DNA of 64,000 nt, taken from the NCBI GenBank assembly GCA_051599415.1, contig AP039691.1:620001-684000 (forward strand), written 5' to 3'. Under the pieces are notes generated by a model, which was not told the DNA's origin, ran no database searches, and was given only the letters and a program-made list of their open reading frames with translations. Source of the DNA: Savitreella phatthalungensis (lineage: Eukaryota). Position 1 is the stretch's first letter. Every line of letters begins with the position of its first letter. Made by a program: the position numbers and the translations under genes. This document shows positions 1 to 21,399 of this stretch, one piece after another.

Positions 1-534
1 GGCGTAGACGAGCTCGTGGGCGGCGGCATATAGGTCTGTGATATCGCCGACGCCGTGCTTGCCGACCACTCGCTTGTACCACGCGTGGCCTGCGGCGGCC
101 CGGCCCTGGACGTACAGCTCGTGACCAGCAGAGACGACGAGCATGCCGGTCTCACTCACCAGCCGGATACTCGGCATCGCTGGAAGTTTCCAGTCCAGTA
201 AAGAGCCCAGCACTGCTTGTCGATGTGCCAGGCCAGCTGCTGCACGCCGGTGGCGCACTAGCGCGATGTGAGAGGAACAGTGCTTTGGGAGCGGATAGAC
301 GTCTCGGAGACGGTAGTTGTGTAGGTCTGTGGTGCAGGCGGTGATATGACGTCTTGAGAAGTCGCCGACTCTTCGCCTGAGCGTGCATGATGCGGCAGCG
401 AGTGACAGGAGTGCGATCCCATGGTCGTCAATGCTCGCGAGACAGCACACCTGGTCGAAGATCACGTCAGGCACGACTTCAAGTCGAGCGTGCGGTCGCG
501 GAGCAAATACCCGCGCACACGGATCCAGGCGCAT
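1..534 (-). CDS. F-box-like protein (partial, 3' end beyond the left edge of the window), with a PAM2-like N-terminal motif
   Basis: Not in the ORF track because there is no stop in the window. Hand translation from ATG 534 is open to base 1: MRLDPCARVFAPRPHARLEVVPDVIFDQVCCLASIDDHGIALLSLAAASCTLRRRV... The LxxxPxxIxxxV...LLSLAAASCTLRR pattern resembles an F-box, and beta-rich sequence follows. Confidence 0.65.
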   Translation of the reverse strand, partial: MRLDPCARVFAPRPHARLEVVPDVIFDQVCCLASIDDHGIALLSLAAASCTLRRRVGDFSRRHITACTTDLHNYRLRDVYPLPKHCSSHIALVRHRRAAAGLAHRQAVLGSLLDWKLPAMPSIRLVSETGMLVVSAGHELYVQGRAAAGHAWYKRVVGKHGVGDITDLYAAAHELVYA

Positions 535-783
535 GGAGCAGCACGTCGGACGACGTGTCGACGCGCCTGAAGGACCAGACACAGGAGGTCGTGTGCGCAG
601 ATAAGTTCACTGTCAAGAAACTCTAGGCGTGCATTCGGGCATGATCTTTGCCCATTGAGACGTCATAGTGCTCATATTATCACATGCACATGTATGGATG
701 CTCGGAAGTGGAAGCAGCTCTACGCAATATTGTACAGGGGAATGCATACGCTACTTCTCTTGTCTTCGACTCTGACTCTGCCC

Positions 784-3000
784 CTACTTCTGAGCTACCA
801 ATCGACGTATCTGCGCGCCTGCGAGCTCGATGTCGTCGGCACGAAGTTCTTGAGGCATGCCGGCGATTCTGGCGATGAGTTGTGCTAGTTCTGTACGGGC
901 AACTCGCTGATGGAACGTCTGTGTGTGCATGGCGGGGATGGCGGCTACGACGCGTGAGATAAGAGTGCGGTCGACTTGCTTGGAAGAGGTGACAAGCTTG
1001 ACGACGTCGCTGTAGAGTTGTCCGCAAGTCGACCAGCCGCGAACACCCTGCGTGTGGCCGTCGAAGCGAGCTAGCAGTGTGCTGAGCTCATCGAATCGGC
1101 CGGAGATCACGGCCGCTGGACCGATATGCTGGTCAATTGTCCTGTGTGCTTCGTTGTAGAGGCCTGCATCGAGCAGGAGAGACGCAACGCGCGCATGCTG
1201 TCCCTGAGAGCGCGCCTGCAGAGCGGCAGCCTCGAGAACCCATTGCCGAGGCAGGTCTAGTGTGAGCAGTCTCTCCATCTCGACAGGACAACGTGCCAAA
1301 ACTGCCTTGACGCCTGACTCGTTCGCAGTCTTGCTTCCGATACACGATGCGACTGCAAGCGCCTCCAGCCACAATCCGGCATCAGCGAGCTGGGCGGAGA
1401 AGGCTAGAGAGAGCTGATCGTAAGTGAGCTGTGCCGCTGCGTCAAGGCTGCCAGACGTCCTGGCCGCGAGGTAGGTGGCAAGGAGCCAAGGTTGGGTGGC
1501 ATCGAGGAGATTTGCTCCGCCTGCTCGAGGGTCTGCGAGTTCTGCAAGCGATTTGTCGGCCGTACATGCGTGCCGCAAGAGCAGATAGTCGATGTCATGA
1601 ATGCCGAGTTCACCTCTCATCGGAGCGGCACTGCCTGCTGCCCGCTCGTAAAGGTCAAACGCTTCATCAAGTCCGTCGGCAAGGCTGGCGCCGTACCATA
1701 ACTTCAGGCCAAAGCAGCGCCGCCAATCAAGTCCGTTGCAGAGCTGCAGATCTTTGCCTGCAAGGCCGTCTGATGACCTGCCCGTGCCGCGCGAGACGGT
1801 CGTGTTTCCCGAGAGGAGTTCGTAGATCATGCGATAGGAGGTGCCAACGTGAGGGAGGGAGGAGGAATCTGCAAAGTCCGCCAGCTGATCAGCCATGGCG
1901 CCGCGGAAGTCACTGTCACCGCCAGCTTGCGCTAGCAATGTAGCAAGACGAAGATCGCGGTTCTTTAGAGCCAGTGCACACGCCTCGACGATCTGCCCGC
2001 CGGTCAAACGGGCGAAGACGCGCTCAGAGGTGTCCAGCGCCCTCTGCTCGTCTGTACGCACGCTGTCGGCCACGCGCTTCCTGAGCCAGTCGCCAACAGC
2101 TGTTTTACGATTTGTTACAGCGTCGTCAAAGAGTGCGCTGGTAAGCAGCCAAGTCTGCTTGGCGTCGCCTGAGAAGGTCTCTGCTACGTGCGCTGCTGTT
2201 GTGCGTGGCGTGCGTCGCAAGTCTGCGGCTAGTGATGTGATGATGCTCGATGGGCACCGAACGGCAGGACAAGTTGAGATCAATGAGATTCTGTTGCCGG
2301 ATGCTTTGATACCTCTGCCGCCTCTCCCCCAACCGAAGATGAATCGTCTCTCTTCGACTTTAGTCTGAGCGCGTCGACGGCCGAAGAGGTCTTGCTGCAG
2401 ATCCGCCAGGTCATATTTGTGCTGCTGCTCTCTCCTTGGCCGCTTCCGGGCTTGTGAGCGAGCAAGCAATATTGATCGACTCTGTAGATCCTGTAGCTGA
2501 GCAGGCCAGTCTTCTGGAATCGAGTCCTCATCTGCCATCATACCCGTTTCGTCACCGAAATTGATCTCTTCTTCGTAGGAGATCCGGCTGATTTGTGAGC
2601 CGTCTGCCATGATGTCCTGGCGAGTGGCTTCTGCATTCGTCTCGTCATCATGCATGATCATTGTGGCATCTTGAATGGTGTTGTCTCCGCGGTACGCTGG
2701 TGCTGCTGAATGCTCTGCTGCCTGTGGTGACTTGTTGTTTTGGACGTTGTCACTGCTACTGCTTTCTGGCTCATCTGCCCTGTTCACTAGACGGCTGCCT
2801 TGTCGTGCATGACCCGGCCGTGCTGGCGTGTACTGCTGAGACTGATAGTTTGAGCGAGCAGTCCCCCTGTGCTGCAAAGGGCTAGGCACGTAGGCGCCTG
2901 GCATACGAAGAAATAAATCATCTGAGACCTTGTCTGGAGCTGGAGACGACTTTGCGTCTTGTGCGTCACCAGTGACACCTGCCAGACCGAAGCGAACCAT
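784..3000 (-). CDS. NUP96: Nucleoporin Nup96 (Nup145C/Nup189C-like), encoded without the Nup98 half
   Basis: 738 aa ORF with Nup96 motifs FIFGWGRGG, LTGGQIVEACALALKNRDLRLATLLAQAGG, IYELLSGN and LDWRRCFGLKLWYG. In-frame stop at 3016-3018, just upstream of the ATG. Confidence 0.9.
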   Translation of the reverse strand: MVRFGLAGVTGDAQDAKSSPAPDKVSDDLFLRMPGAYVPSPLQHRGTARSNYQSQQYTPARPGHARQGSRLVNRADEPESSSSDNVQNNKSPQAAEHSAAPAYRGDNTIQDATMIMHDDETNAEATRQDIMADGSQISRISYEEEINFGDETGMMADEDSIPEDWPAQLQDLQSRSILLARSQARKRPRREQQHKYDLADLQQDLFGRRRAQTKVEERRFIFGWGRGGRGIKASGNRISLISTCPAVRCPSSIITSLAADLRRTPRTTAAHVAETFSGDAKQTWLLTSALFDDAVTNRKTAVGDWLRKRVADSVRTDEQRALDTSERVFARLTGGQIVEACALALKNRDLRLATLLAQAGGDSDFRGAMADQLADFADSSSLPHVGTSYRMIYELLSGNTTVSRGTGRSSDGLAGKDLQLCNGLDWRRCFGLKLWYGASLADGLDEAFDLYERAAGSAAPMRGELGIHDIDYLLLRHACTADKSLAELADPRAGGANLLDATQPWLLATYLAARTSGSLDAAAQLTYDQLSLAFSAQLADAGLWLEALAVASCIGSKTANESGVKAVLARCPVEMERLLTLDLPRQWVLEAAALQARSQGQHARVASLLLDAGLYNEAHRTIDQHIGPAAVISGRFDELSTLLARFDGHTQGVRGWSTCGQLYSDVVKLVTSSKQVDRTLISRVVAAIPAMHTQTFHQRVARTELAQLIARIAGMPQELRADDIELAGAQIRRLVAQK

Positions 3001-3437
3001 TCCAAGGTTCTCTTCTCAATCCTCGTGAACCAGGTGGACAATCAGTCCGACTGCTTATGTGTACTTGAACGTATCTGTAGTAGATGACTGGCGATGGGGA
3101 TGTTGCTGAGAGGTAGTAACGTTGGTTGGCAGTTGATGTTTGTGCATTCTGATGCTTGTGTGCACGTGCTTGATTCAAGTCAGTCATGTCATTCCTAATT
3201 CGACCCGAGTCATAACTTTTTCTATTTCAGGGTGTCCAGTCATCTCGAGGACATCCTCAAGGTCAAAGGCTTGACAAAGACAGGTAGAACTGAAGAAGAC
3301 CTTCTTGCTGTCAAAGGGTCAGACTCTCTTCTATCTACACATCATCTTTTTCTAGCAACTTCACTTGCTGTCTCGTGAAGTATATTTATCCATCTTCTCA
3401 CCTCCGCTCTCTCACTGGGATACTCCTATCATCAGTC

Positions 3438-4760
3438 ATGTCCTCGTTTGGTACAATCTTCAAGGTGATGACAGCAGGCGAGTCGCACTGCAAGTCAGTC
3501 TCGTGCATTGTCGAGGGAGTTCCTCCTGGCATGCGTCTGGTGGAATCTGATATCCAGACGCAGCTTTCTCGACGCCGTCCAGGACAATCGCGCTTGACGA
3601 CGCCGCGTGACGAGAAGGATGCTGTCGAGATTCACTCTGGCACGGAATTTGGCGTCACGCTCGGTACGCCAATCATGATGCTCGTGAGGAACCAAGACCA
3701 ACGTCCGCACGACTACTCCGAGACGGACCTGTACCCTCGGCCCTCCCACGCGGACTGGACGTACCTTCAGAAGTACGGCGTCAAGGCGTCCTCGGGAGGT
3801 GGCAGGTCGTCAGCTCGTGAGACGATCGGTCGTGTAGCTGCTGGAGCGCTGGCTGAGAAGTACCTCCGTGAGGCGTACGGGGTGGAGATCGTGGCTTTCG
3901 TGTCGTCAGTGGGAAGGGTCAAGGTGCCCAGCGTGGTGGCTTCGACGGATGCGGATGATGTTGATGACATCGAGTCGCCCGTCTCAAAGGAGTATCTCGA
4001 CATGCTGAACGCCATCACGCGCGACAAGGTCGACGAGTCGCTTGTCCGGTGCCCTCACGAGGAAACGGCGACCAAGATGATCTCCCGAATCGAGCGCGCC
4101 AAGGCTTCTCAGGACTCGATTGGCGGCACGGTCACCTGCGTGATTCGGAACTGTCCCGTGGGTCTGGGTGAGCCTTGCTTCGACAAGTTCGAGGCTGCGC
4201 TCGGCCACGCCATGCTGAGCATTCCGTCGACAAAGGCTTTCGAGATTGGTTCAGGCTTCGCCGGCACAGAGGTCTCCGGGTCGAAGCACAACGACGCCTT
4301 CCTCCACAAGACTAACCCGCAGACGGGAAAGACCTACCTCGCCACCGCGACAAACAACTCTGGCGGTGTCCAGGGCGGAATCACCAACGGCGAGCACATC
4401 TTCTTCCGCGTTGGGTTCAAGTCGCCTGCGACCATCGGCCAGGGTCAAAAGACGTCGACTTATGAGGGTGTGGCGGGTGAGCTTGCCGCTCGAGGCCGCC
4501 ACGATCCGTGTGTCGTGCCTAGAGCAGTACCGATCGTCGAGTCGATGGCTGCGTTGGTAGTCATGGATCAGCTACTCATCCAGCTATCCCGCCAAGCCTC
4601 CAGGTCCGTTCTCCCGCCGCTCGCAGCACAGAAAGGTCAGCCAGAGCACGTCGACGATGGCCGTGGCGCTCTACGTGTCCTCAAGCCTTCTCAGACCGTC
4701 GTCGGTGGCACGGCAGCAGTCGAGCGCGTGCAGGCAAATGAGCGTGGTGATGCTGCGTAG
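3438..4760 (+). CDS. ARO2: Chorismate synthase
   Basis: Starts MSSFG...TAGESH; motifs RPSHAD, GGGRSSARETIGRVAAG, TNNSGGVQGGITNGE and RGRHDPCVVPRAVPIVE. First ATG is at 3438; the track start at 3375 is GTG. Confidence 0.97.
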   Translation: MSSFGTIFKVMTAGESHCKSVSCIVEGVPPGMRLVESDIQTQLSRRRPGQSRLTTPRDEKDAVEIHSGTEFGVTLGTPIMMLVRNQDQRPHDYSETDLYPRPSHADWTYLQKYGVKASSGGGRSSARETIGRVAAGALAEKYLREAYGVEIVAFVSSVGRVKVPSVVASTDADDVDDIESPVSKEYLDMLNAITRDKVDESLVRCPHEETATKMISRIERAKASQDSIGGTVTCVIRNCPVGLGEPCFDKFEAALGHAMLSIPSTKAFEIGSGFAGTEVSGSKHNDAFLHKTNPQTGKTYLATATNNSGGVQGGITNGEHIFFRVGFKSPATIGQGQKTSTYEGVAGELAARGRHDPCVVPRAVPIVESMAALVVMDQLLIQLSRQASRSVLPPLAAQKGQPEHVDDGRGALRVLKPSQTVVGGTAAVERVQANERGDAA

Positions 4761-5564
4761 ACTATAATTACTATTGCAATTAGGTCGGAAACATAGACAT
4801 TCGTGATGAGTGTGATACTGATGTGAGCCGATCCCTCATGGGTTACAGACCGACTTTATATGTTCGATCACTGCTACGGACGTGTCTTCACTAGCAGACA
4901 TATCCCTGGCTGAACTGCTTGGCAGTCCCTCTGAAAGCATGCACTTCATCCGTGCCACATACGCCGTGCGTTAAACCCTCTCGACACTTAGAGGAGTTTG
5001 ACCATGATTTTGTAATTCACAGCACGGGTGGCCATTAGTGCTAGTCAGAAGACTATATTATATCTGATCAGTGCACAGGTAACTGACTGACCTTCGGGAT
5101 TAATGGAAGGTAGATGCACGAATTCAAGGATTTTCTTCTCGGGGACAATATATTCACCGAGGCCGCGAAAGCAGTGAGGCTGCCGCTTTGATTGACCGCA
5201 ACAGGAAATCATGGAGTGCAAGTCGATTCCGACTGATTGATCGACTGGTTGATTGATAATCTTCGGATAATCTTTCTCCCAAACTTACCGATGCAGTATA
5301 GGCATGCCGGACACCGAGAATCTGGTCAGTCGAGTCGGAGTGAAGGGAGATTATTTTTTTTTCCTCTACATTATGGATCTATCATTATCGTCGTCGGGGA
5401 TTCATCCTTCGTACTTCGTGAATCGTCTCTTTCTCGTTACTCATGTCTCGTGTCTGGCATTTACGTTTTCTCGTGTGTCCCTGCGGACTGTCTCGTGAAT
5501 CGTGATTCATTGATTCGTGATGGGCGGAAGTCATTTGTCATGAGGGTGTCGTAGGATATCGCAC

Positions 5565-6113
5565 TTAGCAGACGGCGACGCGAGTGCCGGCAAATGCGCA
5601 CGAGGTGTCGAGTGATGGTCGCCAGGGCTCGTCGCTCGAGAGTGCCGGCAGGCCTGCAAAGACAATCATGTCTGCGCAAGCCAGGTCAGACGGTCTCCGA
5701 GGAGATCGACCTGCAGCCAGGTCCGAATCCACTGAGCTGCCACGGCGACCGGAGAAAGAGGCGTCAGAAGCACGCGAGCGAGAGATCGAGCGCTCGGCTG
5801 ATGGGTTGTACTGGAGCGTGCGCCCACGTGGCTCAGGCTGAAACGATGCTGCGGATGAGGAGGATCCGTTGCGTCGCTTTGTGATGTTGATGGAATCCAT
5901 CGAGGCCTGGCGGGAGATTCCTGCCGACGAAGCAGAGGAGGAGTTCGACTTGGCAGATCCGCGGCGGCTTGGGTGAGTATGCGAGTGCTTCGATGACGAG
6001 CGGCTCGATGATTTTTTTGATGATTTTGATTCTGTTTTGGAGGAAGAGCTTGCACCGAGCTTGAGCTTACGGTCAATGTAGCTCTCGACAATGGAGACAA
6101 AGATGTTCTGCAT
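5565..6113 (-). CDS. Hypothetical Ser/Arg-rich low-complexity protein (182 aa)
   Basis: True ATG in a good context (ACTATGC), A/C-rich leader and TATA-like TATAAG at about 6244-6249 on the minus strand. Several RRxS motifs. No recognisable domain. Confidence 0.55.
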   Translation of the reverse strand: MQNIFVSIVESYIDRKLKLGASSSSKTESKSSKKSSSRSSSKHSHTHPSRRGSAKSNSSSASSAGISRQASMDSINITKRRNGSSSSAASFQPEPRGRTLQYNPSAERSISRSRASDASFSGRRGSSVDSDLAAGRSPRRPSDLACADMIVFAGLPALSSDEPWRPSLDTSCAFAGTRVAVC

Positions 6114-7695
6114 AGTGATGATTGTTCGTGTTGAAGGTTGTGGTTATCGATGTGAATGGGTGGATGGCGGTGACTATTGGCACTGGAGTTGTTTTGTTAG
6201 GTTGTTCGTTGAGTTCTTCACAGATAGCGGGGTCAGGCATGTACTTATAGACCTATAGGGACATCAGGGACTGAGAGTGAGCTATGTTGCCGATTACACA
6301 TCTTCGGTATTCGCGTGAAGCATGATTTGTTTTCCACCCGCATGCTGACAGTCAGCAAGCTTAGCAAGAACCGATGGCGAGCTTGTCTAAGCGACCCTCA
6401 TAGAATAAAAGATAGAGCTGGTCGCCGTGGAATTCATTTTTCCTACCGTCACGAGGGCGACTACTGCTTTTGAGACTCTTCTGCTCCCGGACTCGTTCCT
6501 CATAGGCGGATGGCAGAATAATCAAGCTTCCTCGACTGTTGGGACATGCAGGGGATTCGCGGCGAATTTGTCAATCAATGTAGAAGTTCAGATGGATTTG
6601 TAACGCGCAACTTCATCTCAGTGGACGCCACATGAAAAAGATTACTGTCCGAGAATCGTGACCTTGATCAGAACCACAAAGCGTATGGACAATGTGGACG
6701 AGGTGTAGTTACACAGATCACCCTCGGAGATGATAACGATTGGATGCCGATACCCATGAGATCGACATCGGACCTCTGCCAGATGGAACACATGCTTGAC
6801 AATCGACATCAGAAAGCTTAGCATGAATGAGTTGAGGGATTCCACACAGATGATCGCGTCACTTCGGTGACTCAGCTTACCCGGGGCTAGCATTCCTCTA
6901 TGCTCTGCAAACAGTAATCACACAGTCGACCACAAGTTGGATTTCTAAACAATTGAAGTGATCTGATCGATCAGATGCAAACTGGGAATGCATGTACAAG
7001 GCTGAGGTATCAATCGATGCAGATTCTCTCTCATGAATTCTAATGATCTTTTGATTGTGGAGCACCCACCTGGATCTGGACATTACATTTACAATCCCCA
7101 CCTGTCGTGACGTCTTTTGCAAGGGTTTGAGATGACTGAAAATCTCACGTGAGCGTGTGGCTACGAAGCGTGTTTGGCCACACTGCCACCGCAGTGACTG
7201 CATACTGGTACCATTGCGACAGAACCACAATCCCTGCATGTGCTTTTCAACCTGACTGCAGCCACATGTTTTTGAATAAACTTTAGAGTGATGAGTCTTC
7301 CATGAAAGTTTCAGTCGCTTCCACAGGTCAGAGGGTCAACCACGCCGGACATGGCCAATCTTGTACCACATCCGCGTCGATCACGCCTCGCCGCTTTCGT
7401 TCCCCACTGAAAAGCTGCTTCAAAATGAAACTTGATGCACAAAACCAACCACAGTCAAATCGATGTCACCGGTAGCTGGCCTGCTCGTCAATCATATCTT
7501 TTAGTGGCGAGATAAGTGCTATTGTGTGACTCGACTTTCCCCAATGCACGACGTCAACGGCAGAGGCAAGATGGCTTCCTTTGGTCGCTCCATCAAGATC
7601 ATGCGTCGTTGCATCCTTGCCATATGCCTTCCGTCTCTCCTGGTCCTCTTTTGCATCCACTTGCCACTCTCTTCACCGAGATCTCCAAGGGAAGA

Positions 7696-8310
7696 TCACT
7701 CCTTTGATAGGAAAGCGGTGATGGCCATGCCACCGAGCAGGAGCACTCTCAAGAACGGGTAGTCGTTCATCGCAAGCGTCACCATCCCTACATAAGGCAT
7801 AAACCCACGGACGATCCCCACCACATCCTCGTCCCGCTCGAGGTAAGACTGACCACGGTGGTAGAGTGACTTGTCGTCATCGTCGTTGTTGTCTCCCTTT
7901 GTGAGGAGGTACTGCTTCTGGAGAGGTGGGTTCGGCTGGGCGAATGGGTTCACTCTCGCACCTTTGTTCGACTCTCCTCGCCGGTAGTTGGCATTGCCGA
8001 TCTTGACGCTGACGTCTGCTGTTTTGAATGATTGGATGACGCGGTGGACGATAGGGATCTTGCGTTCTTGAACGTTGTAAACGACGACGTCGCCTATGCC
8101 GGCGTACGTCGGCAGATTTGTGAGGAAGAGCAGGTCGCCACGTTGGAAGGCAGGTTCCATCGAGCCTGAAAGTACCACCACAACGGGTGACTCGCAGTCA
8201 ACGGCAAGTGAGAGAGCCTTCCATGACATAAATGCGCCTGTACCGACAAGGCATAGGTTTAAGAATTGCAGCAAGGTGCTCCGAATCGAGAGCGTGCTGA
8301 AATCGAGCAT
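7696..8310 (-). CDS. SEC11: Signal peptidase complex catalytic subunit Sec11
   Basis: Motifs SPVVVVLSGSMEPAFQRGDLLFL, IPIVHRV, LLTKGDNN and PYVGMVT. Confidence 0.96.
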   Translation of the reverse strand: MLDFSTLSIRSTLLQFLNLCLVGTGAFMSWKALSLAVDCESPVVVVLSGSMEPAFQRGDLLFLTNLPTYAGIGDVVVYNVQERKIPIVHRVIQSFKTADVSVKIGNANYRRGESNKGARVNPFAQPNPPLQKQYLLTKGDNNDDDDKSLYHRGQSYLERDEDVVGIVRGFMPYVGMVTLAMNDYPFLRVLLLGGMAITAFLSKE

Positions 8311-8620
8311 CTCTGTGAGTATTTGAGTGTGAGAATGGAGCTACTGATTGATGGGCTATGAACTCGTGACGGAGAGATGCTGGTAGTTGATAGAAGCTGA
8401 TGACAAGATGGTATGGGCTGTGTAGACGTGCACTGCTCCAAGTCGCGTTTTGACTTGCTGGCTGCATTGAGGGTCCGATCCACAGTCCAGACTCAATGGG
8501 TTGATCATAAAGTCGAAACACGTGCTGGATGAGAGTTGATGGATTTGATGGATCTGACCCTGTGGATGAAGCCCCACAGGAGAATGCACAAACTTCAATG
8601 GAGGTACTGCATGAATCTCA

Positions 8621-8686
8621 GATACAGTATATACATACGTTCACATACGTACAACGATACAGTATACACGTTCACATACGTACAAC
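8621..8686. repeat. Imperfect tandem duplication (35 bp + 31 bp)
   Basis: GATACAGTATATACATACGTTCACATACGTACAAC (8621-8655) is followed directly by GATACAGTATACACGTTCACATACGTACAAC (8656-8686). Confidence 0.85.
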
Positions 8687-9310
8687 ACTATAGAACGCTG
8701 GAGCCAGTGTATCTGACCTATTATAGCCTGCGACGATCTGAAACGAATTCGAATGACTAGATTACTAAAACTTAAAATTGCACTTTTATGCTTTACCTAA
8801 TTTTGGAAATCTGTTTTGATTTCTTCTGTTATTTGATTGAAAGCGTGCACGTGTTGAAGGACATTTGTTATCTGAGCAAGGTTTACGTGTATATCAAATT
8901 GCGTTGCTATGTACATGCACGGTTTACGTGGACGAGCAGTGTGTATGTGAGTGAGCGAGTGATTGGAGACTTGCTTGACTTTGTGTCACTCTTCCTTTAA
9001 CGGACGTATCCAGTAATAACCCTACAAGGACAAAGCTGCATAGCCAGTCAACAGCTAGGACAACGGCGTGCGCTCTACGCCCCAGGGCCTACGTATCTGC
9101 GCCTTTATCCTGACCTGCCTCTTATCACAAACACTAGAAGCTGAATCATTTCAAGCTTTGTCCTTTCGAGTCAAGTCAATCTAGGCAATCCTAGGCAATC
9201 CTTCTTTCACTCCGCTCCACTCCACTCACTCAACCAGCACTCCGCGCCTACCAGTGCTTAAGCAGCATTCCAAATCCCCCTATAAAGTCAGATCCCGTCC
9301 TCCGTGCATC

Positions 9311-11233
9311 ATGTCAGACACGGCAAGTGACCTGAGAAGGCGCCAGAACAAGCGAGACGAAAGTATCAGGCTAAAAATGGAGAAAGACCTAGCTAAGAAG
9401 CGTCCTACTGCAGCCAGACAGCGCTCGTCACGTAGCAAGGCTGCACCAGGCACAGTCTCTGCCCTCAGACCGTCTCCGCCCATGACAGTCCCACAGGACA
9501 TGACAGTCCACGAAGCAGCACAGCTCATGGCTGCCAAGCGTGAAGATTGTGTCCTTGTCATCTCTGACGAATCTCACCTTTCGGGCATTTTCACAGCCAA
9601 GGATCTCGCCTTCAGAGTCATCGCTGCCGGACTCAAGCCATCTGCTACAAGTGTACAGGACATCATGACGCCAAATCCCATGTGCACCCGGATCGACACA
9701 TCAGCCACCGAAGCCCTCGATCTCATGGTCACCAGGGGTTTCCGTCACTTGCCTGTCGTCGACGAGGAAGGCGATGTGTCAGGAGTGCTCGACATCACAA
9801 AGTGCTTTTACGAAGCCATGTCGAAACTCGAACGTGCGTACGACTCGTCTAAGAAGCTGTACGAAGCTCTCGAGGGCGTCCAGACCGAGATGGGTACCGC
9901 CCACCACCAGCCAGCACCAATCATCGAGTACGTCGAGTCGCTGAAAAAGCGCATGGCAGGACCAGATCTCGCCAGTGTGCTCGACGGCCGTCCGCCTGCG
10001 TGGGTCACTGTCAAGACGAGTGTACGTGAGGCGACTCAGCTGATGAAGGACAACCACACGACCGCTGTCCTCGTCATGGACGGACAAAATCTTGCAGGTA
10101 TCTTCACATCCAAGGACGTCGTCCTCCGCGTCGTCGCACCTGGACTCGATGCTGCCAACTGCTCCGTTGTTCGCGTCATGACCCCGCATCCGGACTGCGC
10201 GCCATCCACCCTGTCCATCCAACAGGCACTCCGGAAGATGAACGACGGACACTACCTCAACTTGCCCGTGACTGACGAGGAGGATACAATTGTCGGTATG
10301 GTCGATGTGCTCAAACTGACCTACGCCACCCTCAACCAGGTGAATTCGATGGGTGGTGCTAATGGCAGCACAGATGAGGTGGTCGAAGAGGAAGGGCCAA
10401 TGTGGAACAAGTTCTGGGGAGCGGCAAATGACGATGGCGAGGACACGGGAAGCGTCATCTCTGGGTCGGACACGCCATCACGCTCCTTCACAGGTCCAGC
10501 GACCACGAATCCAACCGCACCCACACCATCGACCTCAGTCATCAACCCATTCTCAGATCACATCCCTCCGCTACCAGTTCACCAGGCATCCAACACGCCC
10601 AACCGCGAGGAGGACTCACCAGTCAAGCCGGGAGACTCCGTGTCGGCGCTCGAGTCTGGAGACGTGTTCAGCTTCAAGTTCAAGGCGCCTGGAGTGTTGG
10701 GCGGCAGTGGTGGTCGTATCCACCGATTTGCATGTGCACCTGATCGCGGGATCGACCACGTGAAATCGGTCGTGAAGGATCGATTGTCTGCAGACGAGCT
10801 TTCAGAGGTAAGTAATGATTTCGGTGTGTCGTACGTGGACGACGACGGTGACGTCGTCCTTCTAGCGACGGACGACGACCTCGCTGAAGCAGTCGTCGTC
10901 GCTCGACGCGCCTCCAAGGACAAACTCCAACTGTACATCCACCACCCAAGGACACGCGCCTCCCTCGGCACCCGTCCAAATAAGTCACTCCTGCCGGAGA
11001 TGCCTTCTACCCCATCCCCAGCCGCTCAGACAAAGCACGCCGACAGTCCGACCCTAAAGGCACCTGCCGGCACCAACGCCGCTGAAAAACGTCGGGCTGA
11101 ATCGAGCTCGTCTGCTGCCGCATCATCGAAACAGCCGCTAGACGTCTCCACTTTGCTCTTGCCAGGAGCGATCGCACTGCTCGCCGTCGCTGTCGTTGGC
11201 GTCTTCGTCGCAAGTCGGAGTTCAAAGTCGTAG
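9311..11233 (+). CDS. mug70: CBS-CBS-PB1 domain protein with C-terminal transmembrane anchor (Mug70-like)
   Basis: Two CBS pairs (GIFTAKDLAFRV, GFRHLPVV; GIFTSKDVVLRV, GHYLNLPV), a PB1 acidic motif YVDDDGDVVLLATDDDL and a hydrophobic C-terminal helix. First ATG at 9311. Confidence 0.88.
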   Translation: MSDTASDLRRRQNKRDESIRLKMEKDLAKKRPTAARQRSSRSKAAPGTVSALRPSPPMTVPQDMTVHEAAQLMAAKREDCVLVISDESHLSGIFTAKDLAFRVIAAGLKPSATSVQDIMTPNPMCTRIDTSATEALDLMVTRGFRHLPVVDEEGDVSGVLDITKCFYEAMSKLERAYDSSKKLYEALEGVQTEMGTAHHQPAPIIEYVESLKKRMAGPDLASVLDGRPPAWVTVKTSVREATQLMKDNHTTAVLVMDGQNLAGIFTSKDVVLRVVAPGLDAANCSVVRVMTPHPDCAPSTLSIQQALRKMNDGHYLNLPVTDEEDTIVGMVDVLKLTYATLNQVNSMGGANGSTDEVVEEEGPMWNKFWGAANDDGEDTGSVISGSDTPSRSFTGPATTNPTAPTPSTSVINPFSDHIPPLPVHQASNTPNREEDSPVKPGDSVSALESGDVFSFKFKAPGVLGGSGGRIHRFACAPDRGIDHVKSVVKDRLSADELSEVSNDFGVSYVDDDGDVVLLATDDDLAEAVVVARRASKDKLQLYIHHPRTRASLGTRPNKSLLPEMPSTPSPAAQTKHADSPTLKAPAGTNAAEKRRAESSSSAAASSKQPLDVSTLLLPGAIALLAVAVVGVFVASRSSKS

Positions 11234-19536: not shown

Positions 19537-21399
19537 ATGCTCTGGTCTCGGCACAGGCGGAGAGCCGGTCAGAAAGCGTCACGCGATCATGAGCTGGAAT
19601 GCTTCTACTGCGGTGCGCGTGCTACGTTGCGAGTTACAGGGCGAGTTGAGGATTGGCGCTGCGCTTCCTGCGAAGCATTGAATATCTTGGACGACGATGG
19701 CCGGCAGTGCGACTTTGTTCCGGTCAAGTACCAGCATAATTCGTCAAGCGGTCAAGCAAGAAACGATCTCGCACACCCGTCACTTTCATCTCCTTTCTGT
19801 TCTGTATGCATCAGCAATCATGCGCTGTTGACAAAGACGCTTGCGAGTTACCTGCCGGACGAGGACGACCCGGACTATCATGTCTACGAACAGGCCCTGC
19901 CAGCCTATCGGACTGCTTTAGAGGAACGTTACCCGCCGGTCTGCACAGCTTGCACTCCCGGGGTGAGGGCTAGGCTTGAGCGCAATAACTATGTCGCAAA
20001 ATCCTCGGCTCTCGGACAATGGCTATCACGTGCAAAGGCCGTTCAGATGAAAGGCAGCACTGGTTTGAGTCAGTCTCTTCGGAAGGCTGCTTGGGCGGTT
20101 AGAGGGCTGCTTTGGTTCGGCGGTGCTATACTATTTACGCTCATCGTCCTGAGCGACATGGCAAGCAGGCGGAAAGTCCCATCAGTGCTGTATATCAGAC
20201 CCGGACGCCTTCAGCGGCTACTTTTCGTCACTATTTTTGGAGCATTCTGGTCACCTCAGTCACGAACCCTGATTCGCCGACCTGATACACATCTCAGTGG
20301 CAAGGGCGACCATATCAGGCTACAGATACTAGCACAAACCGTTCGGTTTTGCCGGATCTATGTGATCCCCAGGCTTGCAATCTTGCCCAATGTCGCTGAC
20401 CAGATCGACGTCCTTGCGCTCGTCTTCACCATTGTACAGCTTGTGATCAGCCTTCGGCTAGTCCGGATTCAGGATCAAGCGCAGCAGATCACTTTACACG
20501 ATCGCAGTGCGGAGCTAATCGCGAGCATAGTACCTGCTGAAGAGCGCCCGGAAACGCTGGAGGCCGATGATTCCCATCACAATCTCTCACCGTTTGAGCC
20601 ACGAGATCACAGGCCAAGGGCCATGCTAGACAATGCTGCCGCTCCAGTGGCGGAAGCAGATGCGATGGATTGGCAGCCTTCCCCGAAGCAGGATACTACT
20701 CAGATCGCAGCTCTTCCGGCTGGCATGCAGGCATCACCATTCTCTCTGTTTGGCAACTCAACAAAGTCCGATGCGATTCACCATTCGGCAGCTGTAAGAC
20801 CATTGGCGCCACAGAGACTGTATCCGCCTGAAAAGCCCACAGGTTTGGAATCGCTGTTCTCTGCCGCAGTCAGACTCGACGATGAGCCGTTATTGGTACG
20901 AAGTCTCAAGCAAGTCAACGGCGGATCTTGGGAGGTGTCATTGACCCATGTCAGCCTGACAATCGTGCTGCTCGGACTGCTTGCGGGTCTGAAATTTTGC
21001 GACCTAAATCCGCGGGAATTTCTGATCGCATGCGCACTCGGCGGCGTGCTTCATGCACTGACGCTCGACAGACTGGAGCGTAAGCTGATCAAGAGCAAAT
21101 CGATGGGCATCGCGGTTGCGCTGTTGCTATGGGCAGGATTTGCAGCTGCGAAGAGCTCCAGGGCCTGGCTAGAGTCGCATCATCTGCTCCTTGCAGGCGA
21201 TCCAATAGCCGCCATGATTGCCGTCTTGGTCGTACTTGCCGTCACGAATGGCATACGCTGTGTTCAGCCCCGCCGGAGACATCAACGAGGACAATCTCCA
21301 CGAAAGGGAAACCCGACATCGACGGCTGCAGGGCGCTGGCAACAGGCCGGAATTCACGATCGTATGGGTTCGCCGCTATCGAGCAGAGCACGGGGATGA
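19537..21399 (+). CDS. ima1: Inner nuclear membrane protein Ima1 (Samp1/NET5-like)
   Basis: N-terminal CFYC...CASCEALN, FCSVCISNH, YLPDEDDPDY and YPPVCTAC (Ima1_N-type); transmembrane segments; PTGLESLF motif. First ATG at 19537. Confidence 0.88.
   Translation: MLWSRHRRRAGQKASRDHELECFYCGARATLRVTGRVEDWRCASCEALNILDDDGRQCDFVPVKYQHNSSSGQARNDLAHPSLSSPFCSVCISNHALLTKTLASYLPDEDDPDYHVYEQALPAYRTALEERYPPVCTACTPGVRARLERNNYVAKSSALGQWLSRAKAVQMKGSTGLSQSLRKAAWAVRGLLWFGGAILFTLIVLSDMASRRKVPSVLYIRPGRLQRLLFVTIFGAFWSPQSRTLIRRPDTHLSGKGDHIRLQILAQTVRFCRIYVIPRLAILPNVADQIDVLALVFTIVQLVISLRLVRIQDQAQQITLHDRSAELIASIVPAEERPETLEADDSHHNLSPFEPRDHRPRAMLDNAAAPVAEADAMDWQPSPKQDTTQIAALPAGMQASPFSLFGNSTKSDAIHHSAAVRPLAPQRLYPPEKPTGLESLFSAAVRLDDEPLLVRSLKQVNGGSWEVSLTHVSLTIVLLGLLAGLKFCDLNPREFLIACALGGVLHALTLDRLERKLIKSKSMGIAVALLLWAGFAAAKSSRAWLESHHLLLAGDPIAAMIAVLVVLAVTNGIRCVQPRRRHQRGQSPRKGNPTSTAAGRWQQAGIHDRMGSPLSSRARG

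What the first reader, a model, noticed from the sequence alone, without database searches (positions are those of the whole stretch)
784..3200. Stand-alone Nup96: apparent fission of the Nup98-Nup96 polyprotein at the autocleavage site
Seen: a full Nup96 ORF starts at ATG 3000 with an in-frame stop 5 codons upstream. The divergent ARO2 ATG is only 437 bp away, so there is no room for FG repeats, GLEBS or the autoprotease domain. The protein begins M-V-R-F-G-L. Known: human Nup98-96, S. cerevisiae Nup145 and S. pombe Nup189 are single precursors cleaved at HF|S, and the released N-terminus (SKYGL in human) stays docked on the Nup98 autoprotease domain. Inference: the gene has split at that junction. 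Removal of Met before Val would give VRFGL in register with S[KR]YGL, so the docking peptide is kept while autoproteolysis is dispensed with. I do not know of a description of this arrangement in fungi.
Basis: partly seen in the sequence, partly recalled or inferred. Interest (0 to 1): 0.8.

Follow-up and report, generated by a model that had tools for sequence, protein, structure and literature searches.

The report
Stand-alone Nup96 gene in a fungus
This fungus encodes the nuclear-pore protein Nup96 as its own gene, starting exactly where the usual Nup98-Nup96 precursor cuts itself, and the same split has arisen several times in fungi, a tidy evolutionary case rather than new biology.

Summary
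Window 784-3000 (-) is an unbroken 738-aa ORF with a Pfam Nup96 domain (E 2.7e-55). It starts MVRFGL. A TGA lies in frame six codons upstream of the ATG, with five sense codons between. The ARO2 ATG lies 437 bp away. No Nup98 autoprotease domain is found anywhere in the 64 kb.

The split reading is supported by comparison. Four deep, unnamed relatives begin MV[RK]FG and form a clade with the window protein. Named basidiomycetes (Microbotryum, Meredithblackwellia, Jaapia, Tephrocybe) begin MA[RK]F, while their relatives (Mixia, Atractiella, Ustilago, Tremellomycetes, Auricularia) are fused. One origin for all the splits is rejected (AU p 4.4e-7). Stand-alone Nup98 proteins that end exactly at ...HF also exist.

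Three things are not shown. This genome's own Nup98 gene was not seen, because no genome is held. The transcript 5' end is unknown, because no RNA run is listed. Docking of the peptide has only weak support.

Separate Nup98 and Nup96 genes are already known in plants, and an engineered split works in S. pombe. I found no description of a natural split in fungi. I file it as a new member of a known kind, of moderate interest.

The parts
784..3000 (-). Complete stand-alone Nup96/Nup145C coding sequence, 738 aa, no intron needed
   Evidence: ORF. Pfam PF12110, E 2.7e-55. PDB sequence hits to Nup96, 7tdz_F, E 4e-31. AF2 model with Foldseek top hits to Nup96/Nup145C chains.
2983..3000 (-). Codons for M-V-R-F-G-L, the N-terminal peptide in register with the S-[KR]-Y-G-L that follows the HF|S cleavage bond in fused precursors
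   Evidence: Same start in P0004, P0076, P0149 and P0150. Junction statistics.
3016..3018 (-). In-frame TGA stop, five sense codons upstream of the ATG
3001..3437 (.). 437-bp divergent intergenic spacer between Nup96 and ARO2. It has no open frame and no autoprotease-like coding.
   Evidence: Difference density is 8.1% here against 1.7% in the coding part in the X3 relative.
3438..4760 (+). Chorismate synthase (ARO2), the divergent neighbour
   Evidence: PF01264, E 8.5e-129.
2890..2922 (-). Residues 27-37, DDLFLRMPGAY. This is an ascomycete-type motif of the N-terminal extension (GPDDTFxY ... R.PGG[FY] in relatives).
2383..2508 (-). Two predicted helices in the otherwise disordered N-terminal extension (residues 165-182 and 198-206). 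They may be the equivalent of the Nup145C N-terminal assembly sensor. This is an inference.
   Evidence: AF2 model. Passages of bioRxiv 10.1101/2021.10.26.465790.
2260..2340 (-). Residues about 221-247 (RRFIFGWG... plus predicted strands). This is the likely Sec13-insertion blade region.
   Evidence: The alignment column W224 is invariant in 8 of 8 sequences. Strands are predicted at 238-241 and 244-247. Not tested with Sec13.
1219..2025 (-). Pfam Nup96 domain, residues 326-594

Best explanation
Window 784-3000 (-) is a functional, stand-alone gene for the coat nucleoporin Nup96 (Nup145C). It arose by fission of the ancestral Nup98-Nup96 gene exactly at the autocleavage bond. Translation starts at ATG 3000. 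Removal of the initiator Met before Val would leave V-R-F-G-L. That is the same N-terminal register that autoproteolysis (HF|S-[KR]-Y-G-L) gives in fused species. In effect, ribosomal initiation plus Met aminopeptidase replace the self-cleaving step. The Nup98 half (FG repeats, GLEBS, autoprotease fold) must then be encoded elsewhere and probably ends at or near ...HF. This is inferred, not seen. The retained [RK]-F-G-[LIVF] peptide most likely still docks non-covalently in the groove of the Nup98 C-terminal domain. This too is inferred, with weak support. The split is old in this lineage. The lineage is ascomycete-like and sits nearest Schizosaccharomyces on the Nup96 tree. Its split arose independently of at least two splits in Basidiomycota.
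For: Shown directly: the ORF, the upstream in-frame stop, the 437-bp spacer to ARO2, and no autoprotease domain in the 64 kb.

Family: Pfam Nup96, E 2.7e-55; PDB Nup96 hit, E 4e-31; the model's helical domain has pLDDT mostly above 85, and Foldseek's top hits are Nup96/Nup145C chains (7tdz_F, E 1.6e-19; 4xmm_B; 3iko_B).

Start site: an about 95%-identical relative has 5 differences in 294 coding bases, 4 of them at third positions, against 22 in the 271 bases upstream.

Comparison: 9 of 9 distinct stand-alone Nup96 proteins begin M-[VA]-[RK]-F. The 96 genuine fused junctions read HF/Y-[ST]-x-[Y69/W26/V1]-G-L followed by an acidic run.

Clade: the window, P0010 and the four MV[RK]FG proteins form a clade (SH-aLRT 93) inside the ascomycete-type clade (94). 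They share the motif GPDDTFxY...PGG[FY] with Neolecta, Peziza and S. pombe fused forms. Named basidiomycetes lack it.

Independent origins: holding all 9 split rows as one clade is rejected (p-AU 4.4e-7, delta lnL 117). Holding the 4 basidiomycete split rows as one clade gives p-AU 0.025.

Complementary halves: P0159/P0188, P0160 and P0177/P0189/P0190 end ...HF. The two Mycena citricolor proteins, P0173 and P0174, end ...EWF. P0172 ends ...SGF.

Feasibility: in S. pombe, Nup98 and Nup96 expressed from two loci rescue the nup189 deletion (PMC4483485, passages and section 4.2 read).

Predicted complex: window residues 1-60 with the last 150 residues of the stand-in P0188 gave weak support, score 0.41 against a best control of 0.02. 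The mark was reached by 51 of 78 solved complexes and 2 of 108 mismatched pairs. At 0.60 or under it was reached by only 5 of those 78 and by all 4 mismatches that passed (of 180). The runs agree in at least 27% of contacts, and the partner's pLDDT is at least 34. A like complex has been solved, so the pass may come from memory.
Against: The genome's own Nup98 gene was not seen, because no whole genome is held. So neither a fused paralogue elsewhere nor a missing Nup98 can be excluded directly.

There is no RNA evidence for the 5' end.

In run X2 (same sample as the likely source) the two contigs stop at 3090 and 3376, inside the spacer. Only X1, which may be the source, spans the spacer in one piece. 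X3 covers 2707-3271 and 3340-3586.

The acidic run that normally follows the peptide is degenerate here. The window has 2 acidic residues in P6'-P17', against a mean of 7.05 in the 100 fused junctions counted, 98 of which have 5 or more.

The phylum placement is not firm. The link to Schizosaccharomyces has support of only 80. The ESM Atlas neighbour cluster of ARO2 is 'commonest Basidiomycota'.

The split groups were named after the first tree had been seen, which weakens the AU p-values.

The stand-alone status of the unnamed Logan and JGI proteins rests on gene calls. One such 'short' protein (P0022) turned out to be the second exon of a fused gene.
Confidence: 0.8

Rival explanations
1. 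This is a partial duplicate. The genome still has an intact, self-cleaving Nup98-Nup96 gene elsewhere, and this ORF is an extra Nup96-only paralogue.
For: It cannot be excluded, because no genome is held. Fungi do keep extra copies of halves of this gene: S. cerevisiae Nup100 and Nup116 are Nup98-only paralogues (PMC6371224 passage; Nup116 C-terminal-domain chains).
Against: The collection searched holds this genome's own protein (P0001, on a 742,713-bp contig). No other listed hit exceeds 43% identity, so no close fused paralogue surfaced among 1.84 billion representatives. Four deep relatives keep the same stand-alone start and form a clade with the window. Stand-alone Nup98 proteins ending at HF with S. 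pombe-like sequence exist (P0159/P0188).
Confidence: 0.07
2. This is an artefact. Either a mis-assembly in the spacer or an unseen upstream exon (a long intron across ARO2) hides a normal fused gene.
For: The X2 contigs end at 3090 and 3376, inside the spacer. There are no RNA data.
Against: The X1 contig spans 1-6000 with no differences, and the X3 contig of a relative spans 2707-3271 across the ATG. The first residues MVRFG are conserved as the protein start in four relatives of only 28-30% identity. In a fused gene this position reads HF[ST]x[YW]G and has no Met. An in-frame stop lies 18 bases upstream. An intron would have to span the whole ARO2 gene.
Confidence: 0.03
3. The split is real, but the conserved M-[VA]-[RK]-F-G start is kept for a reason other than docking on Nup98. 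Candidate reasons are N-terminal processing, acetylation or stability, the translation start context, or binding to another partner.
For: Phe replaces Tyr/Trp in 9 of 9 split forms against 0 of 96 genuine fused junctions. Simple retention of the old docking peptide does not predict this. The acidic run is lost in the window protein. The complex prediction is only a weak pass, and it may come from memory of solved structures.
Against: The positions kept (basic, aromatic, Gly, aliphatic) are those conserved after the cleavage site in fused forms. A non-covalent contact between the Nup98 C-terminus and the Nup96 N-terminus is stated in the literature (PMC4483485 section 4.1 passage). The three controls of the complex test scored 0.00-0.02.
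Confidence: 0.25

Closest known systems
Fused, self-cleaving Nup98-Nup96 precursors (S. pombe Nup189, S. cerevisiae Nup145, animal Nup98-96; peptidase S59 / PF04096 plus PF12110)
   Same: The Nup96 domain, fold and N-terminal extension motifs are the same. The window protein begins at the position of the P1' residue of the HF|S bond.
   Different: There is no FG, GLEBS or autoprotease part upstream or in the window. The Ser/Thr nucleophile is replaced by Val after an initiator Met. The aromatic residue is Phe instead of Tyr/Trp. The acidic run is degenerate.
Plant-type arrangement: Nup98 and Nup96 encoded by separate genes (Arabidopsis, rice)
   Same: Nup96 is a gene of its own. The review states that Nup98 and Nup96 are separate genes in plants except Chlamydomonas and Physcomitrella (PMC8685260, passage read).
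   Different: It is a different kingdom and an independent event. The same review says that fungi and animals use one gene. I did not compare the plant N-termini.
Engineered split in S. pombe (nup98 and nup96 expressed from two loci)
   Same: It shows that the two halves work when made separately in an ascomycete (PMC4483485).
   Different: It is a laboratory construct, whereas the window shows a natural, old, fixed version.
Stand-alone Nup96 of Basidiomycota in public records (Microbotryum saponariae SCZ98321.1, Meredithblackwellia eburnea KAM0749545.1, Jaapia argillacea, Tephrocybe rancida KAG6908251.1). All are annotated as hypothetical or unnamed proteins.
   Same: The fission point is the same, and the start is M-A-[RK]-F.
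   Different: They belong to different clades on the tree, and one origin is rejected. They carry a different N-terminal extension motif, DD.[LFA]PPP instead of GPDDTFxY...PGGF.
Nup98-Nup96 split in Cyanidiales red algae
   Same: The break is at the F|S site, with loss of the catalytic His in the Nup98 half, as in Mycena (EWF) and P0172 (SGF) here.
   Different: There the two genes are divergent neighbours. Here the neighbour is ARO2 and the window holds no Nup98. I did not re-test that note.

Membership tests
Nup96 / Nup145C coat nucleoporin | Pfam Nup96 domain (PF12110) above the gathering score | tested here: met
   187.9 bits against a cut-off of 25, E 2.7e-55, residues 326-594, profile positions 1-294 of 295.
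Nup96 / Nup145C coat nucleoporin | Helical (ACE1-type) fold like solved Nup96/Nup145C | tested here: met
   AF2 model with mean pLDDT 73.7; residues 280-720 score mostly above 85. The Foldseek PDB top hits are Nup96 chains (7tdz_F, E 1.6e-19) and Nup145C (4xmm_B, 3iko_B, 3bg0_B).
Nup96 / Nup145C coat nucleoporin | Sec13-insertion blade just before the helical domain | tested here: inconclusive
   The conserved F.F.W pattern (W224 is invariant in 8 of 8 sequences) and short predicted strands at 238-247 are present, but confidence is low to moderate. No test with Sec13 was done.
Nup96 / Nup145C coat nucleoporin | N-terminal peptide that docks on the Nup98 C-terminal domain | tested here: inconclusive
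   The sequence register is kept. The predicted complex with a stand-in Nup98 gave weak support, 0.41 against a best control of 0.02.
Self-cleaving Nup98-Nup96 precursor (peptidase S59 arrangement) | Autoprotease domain (PF04096) directly upstream, with an HF|S/T junction | tested here: not met
   There is a stop 18 bases upstream and a 437-bp spacer to ARO2. No autoprotease-like segment was found in the 64 kb (best E 2). Residue 2 is Val, not Ser/Thr.
Split Nup98 / Nup96 arrangement (as in plants) | Nup96 encoded as a separate gene with its own start | tested here: met
   The start is conserved in relatives.
Split Nup98 / Nup96 arrangement (as in plants) | A separate Nup98 gene in the same genome | not testable with these tools
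   No whole genome is held. Only stand-alone Nup98 proteins of other, mostly unnamed organisms were seen.

The most novel reading that the evidence does not exclude
The Nup98-Nup96 gene has broken at exactly the same peptide bond at least three separate times in fungi: in the window's ascomycete-like clade, in Microbotryomycetes, and in a subset of Agaricomycetes. Each time it converged on the same new N-terminus, M-[AV]-[RK]-F-G. The small second residue lets the initiator Met be removed, so the mature end matches the autoproteolytic product. The Tyr/Trp-to-Phe switch (9 of 9 split against 0 of 96 fused) would mean that the P3' hydroxyl or indole serves the cleavage chemistry or the precursor strain, and that Phe is preferred once only docking matters. 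If so, the exact N-terminal register of Nup96, and not autoproteolysis itself, is the selected trait.
Probability: 0.35. Interest if true: 0.6.

Novelty: new member of a known kind. Interest (0 to 1): 0.42.

Why it matters
Textbook and review statements say that fungi and animals make Nup98 and Nup96 from one self-cleaving precursor (PMC8685260; PMC8421043). Natural, old, repeated fissions in fungi give a ready-made comparative experiment on two questions. The first is what autoproteolysis is for. The second is which residues around the junction serve cleavage and which serve docking. The split also matters for annotation in two ways. Short 'Nup96' and 'Nup98' models in fungi need not be errors. 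Conversely, some short models are errors (P0022). The finding does not open a new kind of biology.

Tried and rejected
- Whole-genome search for PF04096 in the window's assembly: no genome is held.
- RNA evidence: no RNA holder is listed, so the 5' end stays unknown.
- Earlier notes of this scan on this genome, its relatives, or by sequence: nothing found.
- DNA of a stand-alone Nup98 that ends at HF (P0159) in metagenome contigs: 131 pattern matches, none confirmed.
- P0022 as a supposed short relative: rejected. Locus L001 shows a fused ORF (4403-7939, with ...VEHFTRYGL...), then an intron, then the ORF 7974-9803.
- First guess that the window is a basidiomycete, made because the first named split forms were basidiomycetes and the ARO2 Atlas cluster is 'commonest Basidiomycota': set aside after the tree and the extension motif, but not excluded.
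- The sigma-70 and terminator scan of the spacer is not meaningful for a eukaryote and found nothing.
- Literature searches that found no description of a fungal split. Those returned papers, of which I read only the listings, apart from the papers named in the full report; two searches returned none. Sun & Guo 2008 (PMC2248301) is not held, so the role of the P3' Tyr in cleavage is not sourced here.
- Supplements of the papers were not opened.
Full report
OBSERVATION. The minus strand of window 784-3000 holds one unbroken ORF of 738 aa that begins MVRFGLAGV. Reading upstream in the same frame gives ...HED*EENLG-MVRFG: a TGA at 3016-3018, then five sense codons, then the ATG at 3000. All three minus-strand frames of 3001-3437 carry several stops. 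Chorismate synthase (PF01264, E 8.5e-129) starts at 3438 on the plus strand, so the spacer is 437 bp. The ORF has a full Pfam Nup96 domain (PF12110, residues 326-594, E 2.7e-55). It matches solved Nup96 chains by sequence (7tdz_F, E 4e-31). The AlphaFold2 model has mean pLDDT 73.7. Residues 1-160 are disordered, and a helical domain runs from about 250 to 738, mostly above pLDDT 85. Foldseek ranks Nup96 and Nup145C chains first for this model (7tdz_F, E 1.6e-19; 4xmm_B; 3iko_B). I built a profile from 107 autoprotease-domain segments of the homologues fetched here. It found nothing in 1641 six-frame segments of the whole 64-kb window (best E = 2).

IS THE START REAL? No RNA run is listed for this DNA, so I used DNA comparison. 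A contig of a relative that is roughly 95% identical (run X3) spans 2707-3271. It has 5 differences in the 294 coding bases, 4 of them at third codon positions. It has 22 differences in the 271 bases upstream of the ATG. This is the pattern expected if coding starts at 3000. Contiguity is less clean. X1 spans 1-6000 without a difference, but X1 may be the source of the assembly. The two contigs of X2 (same sample) end at 3090 and 3376, inside the spacer. X3 covers 2707-3271 and 3340-3586. I regard a mis-join as unlikely, but this check is not independent.

RELATIVES. The protein is isolated. Among 1.84 billion representatives, 930 score E <= 0.001, but no listed hit exceeds 43% identity. Fused homologues carry a very regular junction. 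In 98 distinct motif matches, 2 are not real junctions (a second site in P0092 and the linker of P0158). The remaining 96 read H-[F/Y] | [S/T]-x-[Y 69, W 26, V 1]-G-L, followed by an acidic run. Nine distinct proteins instead start M-[V5/A4]-[R/K]-F, with Gly next in 7 of the 9. They are the window protein, four unnamed Logan proteins (P0004, P0076, P0149, P0150; MV[RK]FG), Meredithblackwellia eburnea and Microbotryum saponariae (MA[RK]FGL), and Jaapia argillacea and Tephrocybe rancida (MARFK/MARFR). If the initiator Met is removed, the mature end [VA]-[RK]-F-G-L is in register with S-[KR]-Y-G-L. The rule that Met aminopeptidase acts before small residues such as Ala and Val is recalled, not tested. 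The nucleophilic Ser/Thr is gone in all nine.

THE OTHER HALF. I searched with the autoprotease region of S. pombe Nup189, and 30 proteins scored among 187 candidates. Several stand-alone Nup98 proteins stop exactly at the cleavage position. P0159/P0188, P0160 and P0177/P0189/P0190 end ...W.F.V.HF. The two Mycena citricolor proteins end ...TVEWF. P0172 ends ...GVSGF. The catalytic His is thus lost in the last two. P0159/P0188 and P0172 resemble S. pombe at the C-terminus, and the others resemble Mycena. I could not obtain DNA for any of them. None can be assigned to the window's genome.

HOW MANY TIMES? Names obtained for the fused forms show a patchy pattern. Fused among basidiomycetes are Auricularia, Vanrija, a Tremellales species, Kockovaella, Naganishia, Ustilago trichophora, Tilletiopsis, Mixia and Atractiella. 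Fused among other fungi are Neolecta, two Schizosaccharomyces species, Peziza and Mortierella. I built an IQ-TREE (quick, LG+C20) of 40 Nup96 domains. It recovers a basidiomycete clade (95*) and an ascomycete-type clade (94). The window, P0010 and the four MV[RK]FG proteins form one clade (93). That clade sits beside Schizosaccharomyces and the fused metagenomic gene of L001 (80, weak). Starred branches force at least 3 changes of the split label. Holding all 9 split rows together costs 117 lnL units (p-AU 4.4e-7). Holding the 4 basidiomycete split rows together costs 27 units (p-AU 0.025). These groups were defined by a trait, but I named them after seeing a first tree.

An independent character agrees with the tree. 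The window group shares GPDDTFxY...R.PGG[FY] (DDLFLRMPGAY in the window) with the fused forms of Neolecta, Peziza, S. pombe and L001. The named basidiomycetes have DD.[LFA]PPP instead. Against this, the ESM Atlas neighbour cluster of the window's ARO2 is 'commonest Basidiomycota'. The phylum is therefore probable, not settled. Path lengths between the window and its split relatives (about 2.4) are similar to S. pombe-Neolecta (about 2.5). The split in this clade therefore looks old.

A CAUTION ON SHORT MODELS. P0022 looked like a short Nup96 close to the window. Its locus L001 shows a fused ORF (4403-7939) with ...VEHFTRYGL..., followed by an intron and then the ORF 7974-9803. Prokaryote-style gene calls therefore cut fused genes. 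I count a protein as split only if it starts with the M-[VA]-[RK]-F signature, which a fused gene does not contain.

MECHANISM. Shown: a stand-alone Nup96 gene that starts at the old cleavage position. Inferred: a separate Nup98 elsewhere, removal of the initiator Met, and continued docking of the N-terminal peptide on the Nup98 C-terminal domain. The literature states a non-covalent contact between the Nup98 C-terminus and the Nup96 N-terminus. It also shows that Nup98 and Nup96 expressed from two loci rescue the S. pombe nup189 deletion (PMC4483485; passages and section 4.2 read).

I ran a predicted complex of window residues 1-60 with the last 150 residues of the stand-in P0188. It gave weak support, with a score of 0.41 against a best control of 0.02. 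The mark was reached by 51 of 78 solved complexes and 2 of 108 mismatched pairs. At 0.60 or under it was reached by only 5 of those 78 and by all 4 mismatches that passed (of 180). The runs agree in at least 27% of contacts, and the partner's pLDDT is at least 34. Like complexes are solved, so the pass may be memory.

The N-terminal extension may also carry the assembly-sensor helices described for C. thermophilum Nup145C (bioRxiv 10.1101/2021.10.26.465790, passages). The model predicts helices at 165-182 and 198-206. This link is an inference.

Two features do not fit simple retention of the old peptide. Phe replaces Tyr/Trp in 9 of 9 split forms, against 0 of 96 fused forms. The window has lost the acidic run: 2 acidic residues in P6'-P17', against a mean of 7.05 in the 100 fused junctions counted.

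WHAT IS KNOWN. Separate Nup98 and Nup96 genes are described for most plants. The same review says that animals and fungi use one gene (PMC8685260, passage). A review of nuclear-pore evolution mentions only fused, self-cleaving forms and the uncleaved trypanosome form (PMC8421043, passages). My searches for a fungal split found no description; I saw listings only, except for the papers named above. The basidiomycete proteins are in public records, but as hypothetical proteins.

VERDICT. The finding is real and the reading is right. The arrangement is not unique to this genome, and it is a known kind of arrangement outside fungi. The recurrent, convergent fission is the most interesting part. 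It needs named genomes and bench work to confirm.

Noticed in passing
window 3090-3376: Both Logan contigs of run X2 (same sample as the likely source) end inside the Nup96-ARO2 spacer, at 3090 and 3376. X1 spans the spacer. The cause is unknown; it could be low complexity, a coverage step from 658 to 846, or heterogeneity.
   Followed up: partly
P0173, P0174 (Mycena citricolor) and P0172 (unnamed): These stand-alone Nup98 proteins end ...EWF and ...SGF instead of ...HF. The catalytic His of the autoprotease motif is lost once the gene is split, as the earlier scan note reported for Cyanidiales.
   Followed up: partly
split Nup96 N-termini compared with fused junctions: The aromatic residue two places after the cleavage position is Phe in 9 of 9 split forms. 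In 96 genuine fused junctions it is Tyr (69), Trp (26) or Val (1), and never Phe. No explanation was tested.
   Followed up: partly
P0158 (unnamed, 583 aa): This Nup98-like protein has two tandem autoprotease domains. The first is followed by HF-RYFKT...RYGL and the second ends ...EHFR.
   Followed up: no
L001 4403-9803: A metagenomic fungal Nup98-Nup96 gene is fused (HFTRYGL) but interrupted by an intron after ...KRENKVWV. Gene callers report its second exon as a 600-aa 'protein' (the P0022 cluster, 8 members).
   Followed up: yes
P0004, P0076, P0149, P0150, P0052 (alignment A1, columns about 700-720): All five unnamed relatives end at the same alignment position (G.W.W..FV.LH...). This suggests a shared intron there, which the window's gene lacks.
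   Followed up: no
P0126 (unnamed, 686 aa): This protein begins MHSYGLDDDSDEE. It is either another kind of start at the junction or a gene-call artefact.
   Followed up: no
window 7696-62190: The rest of the window is ordinary fungal housekeeping, mostly as long intron-free ORFs. It includes a CBS/PB1 protein, a class II tRNA synthetase, an ABC1 kinase, a PQ-loop protein, an Ima1-like inner nuclear membrane protein (19537-21399), PP2C, eIF5B-like GTPase, mevalonate diphosphate decarboxylase, Utp25, and the ribonucleotide reductase large subunit.
   Followed up: partly
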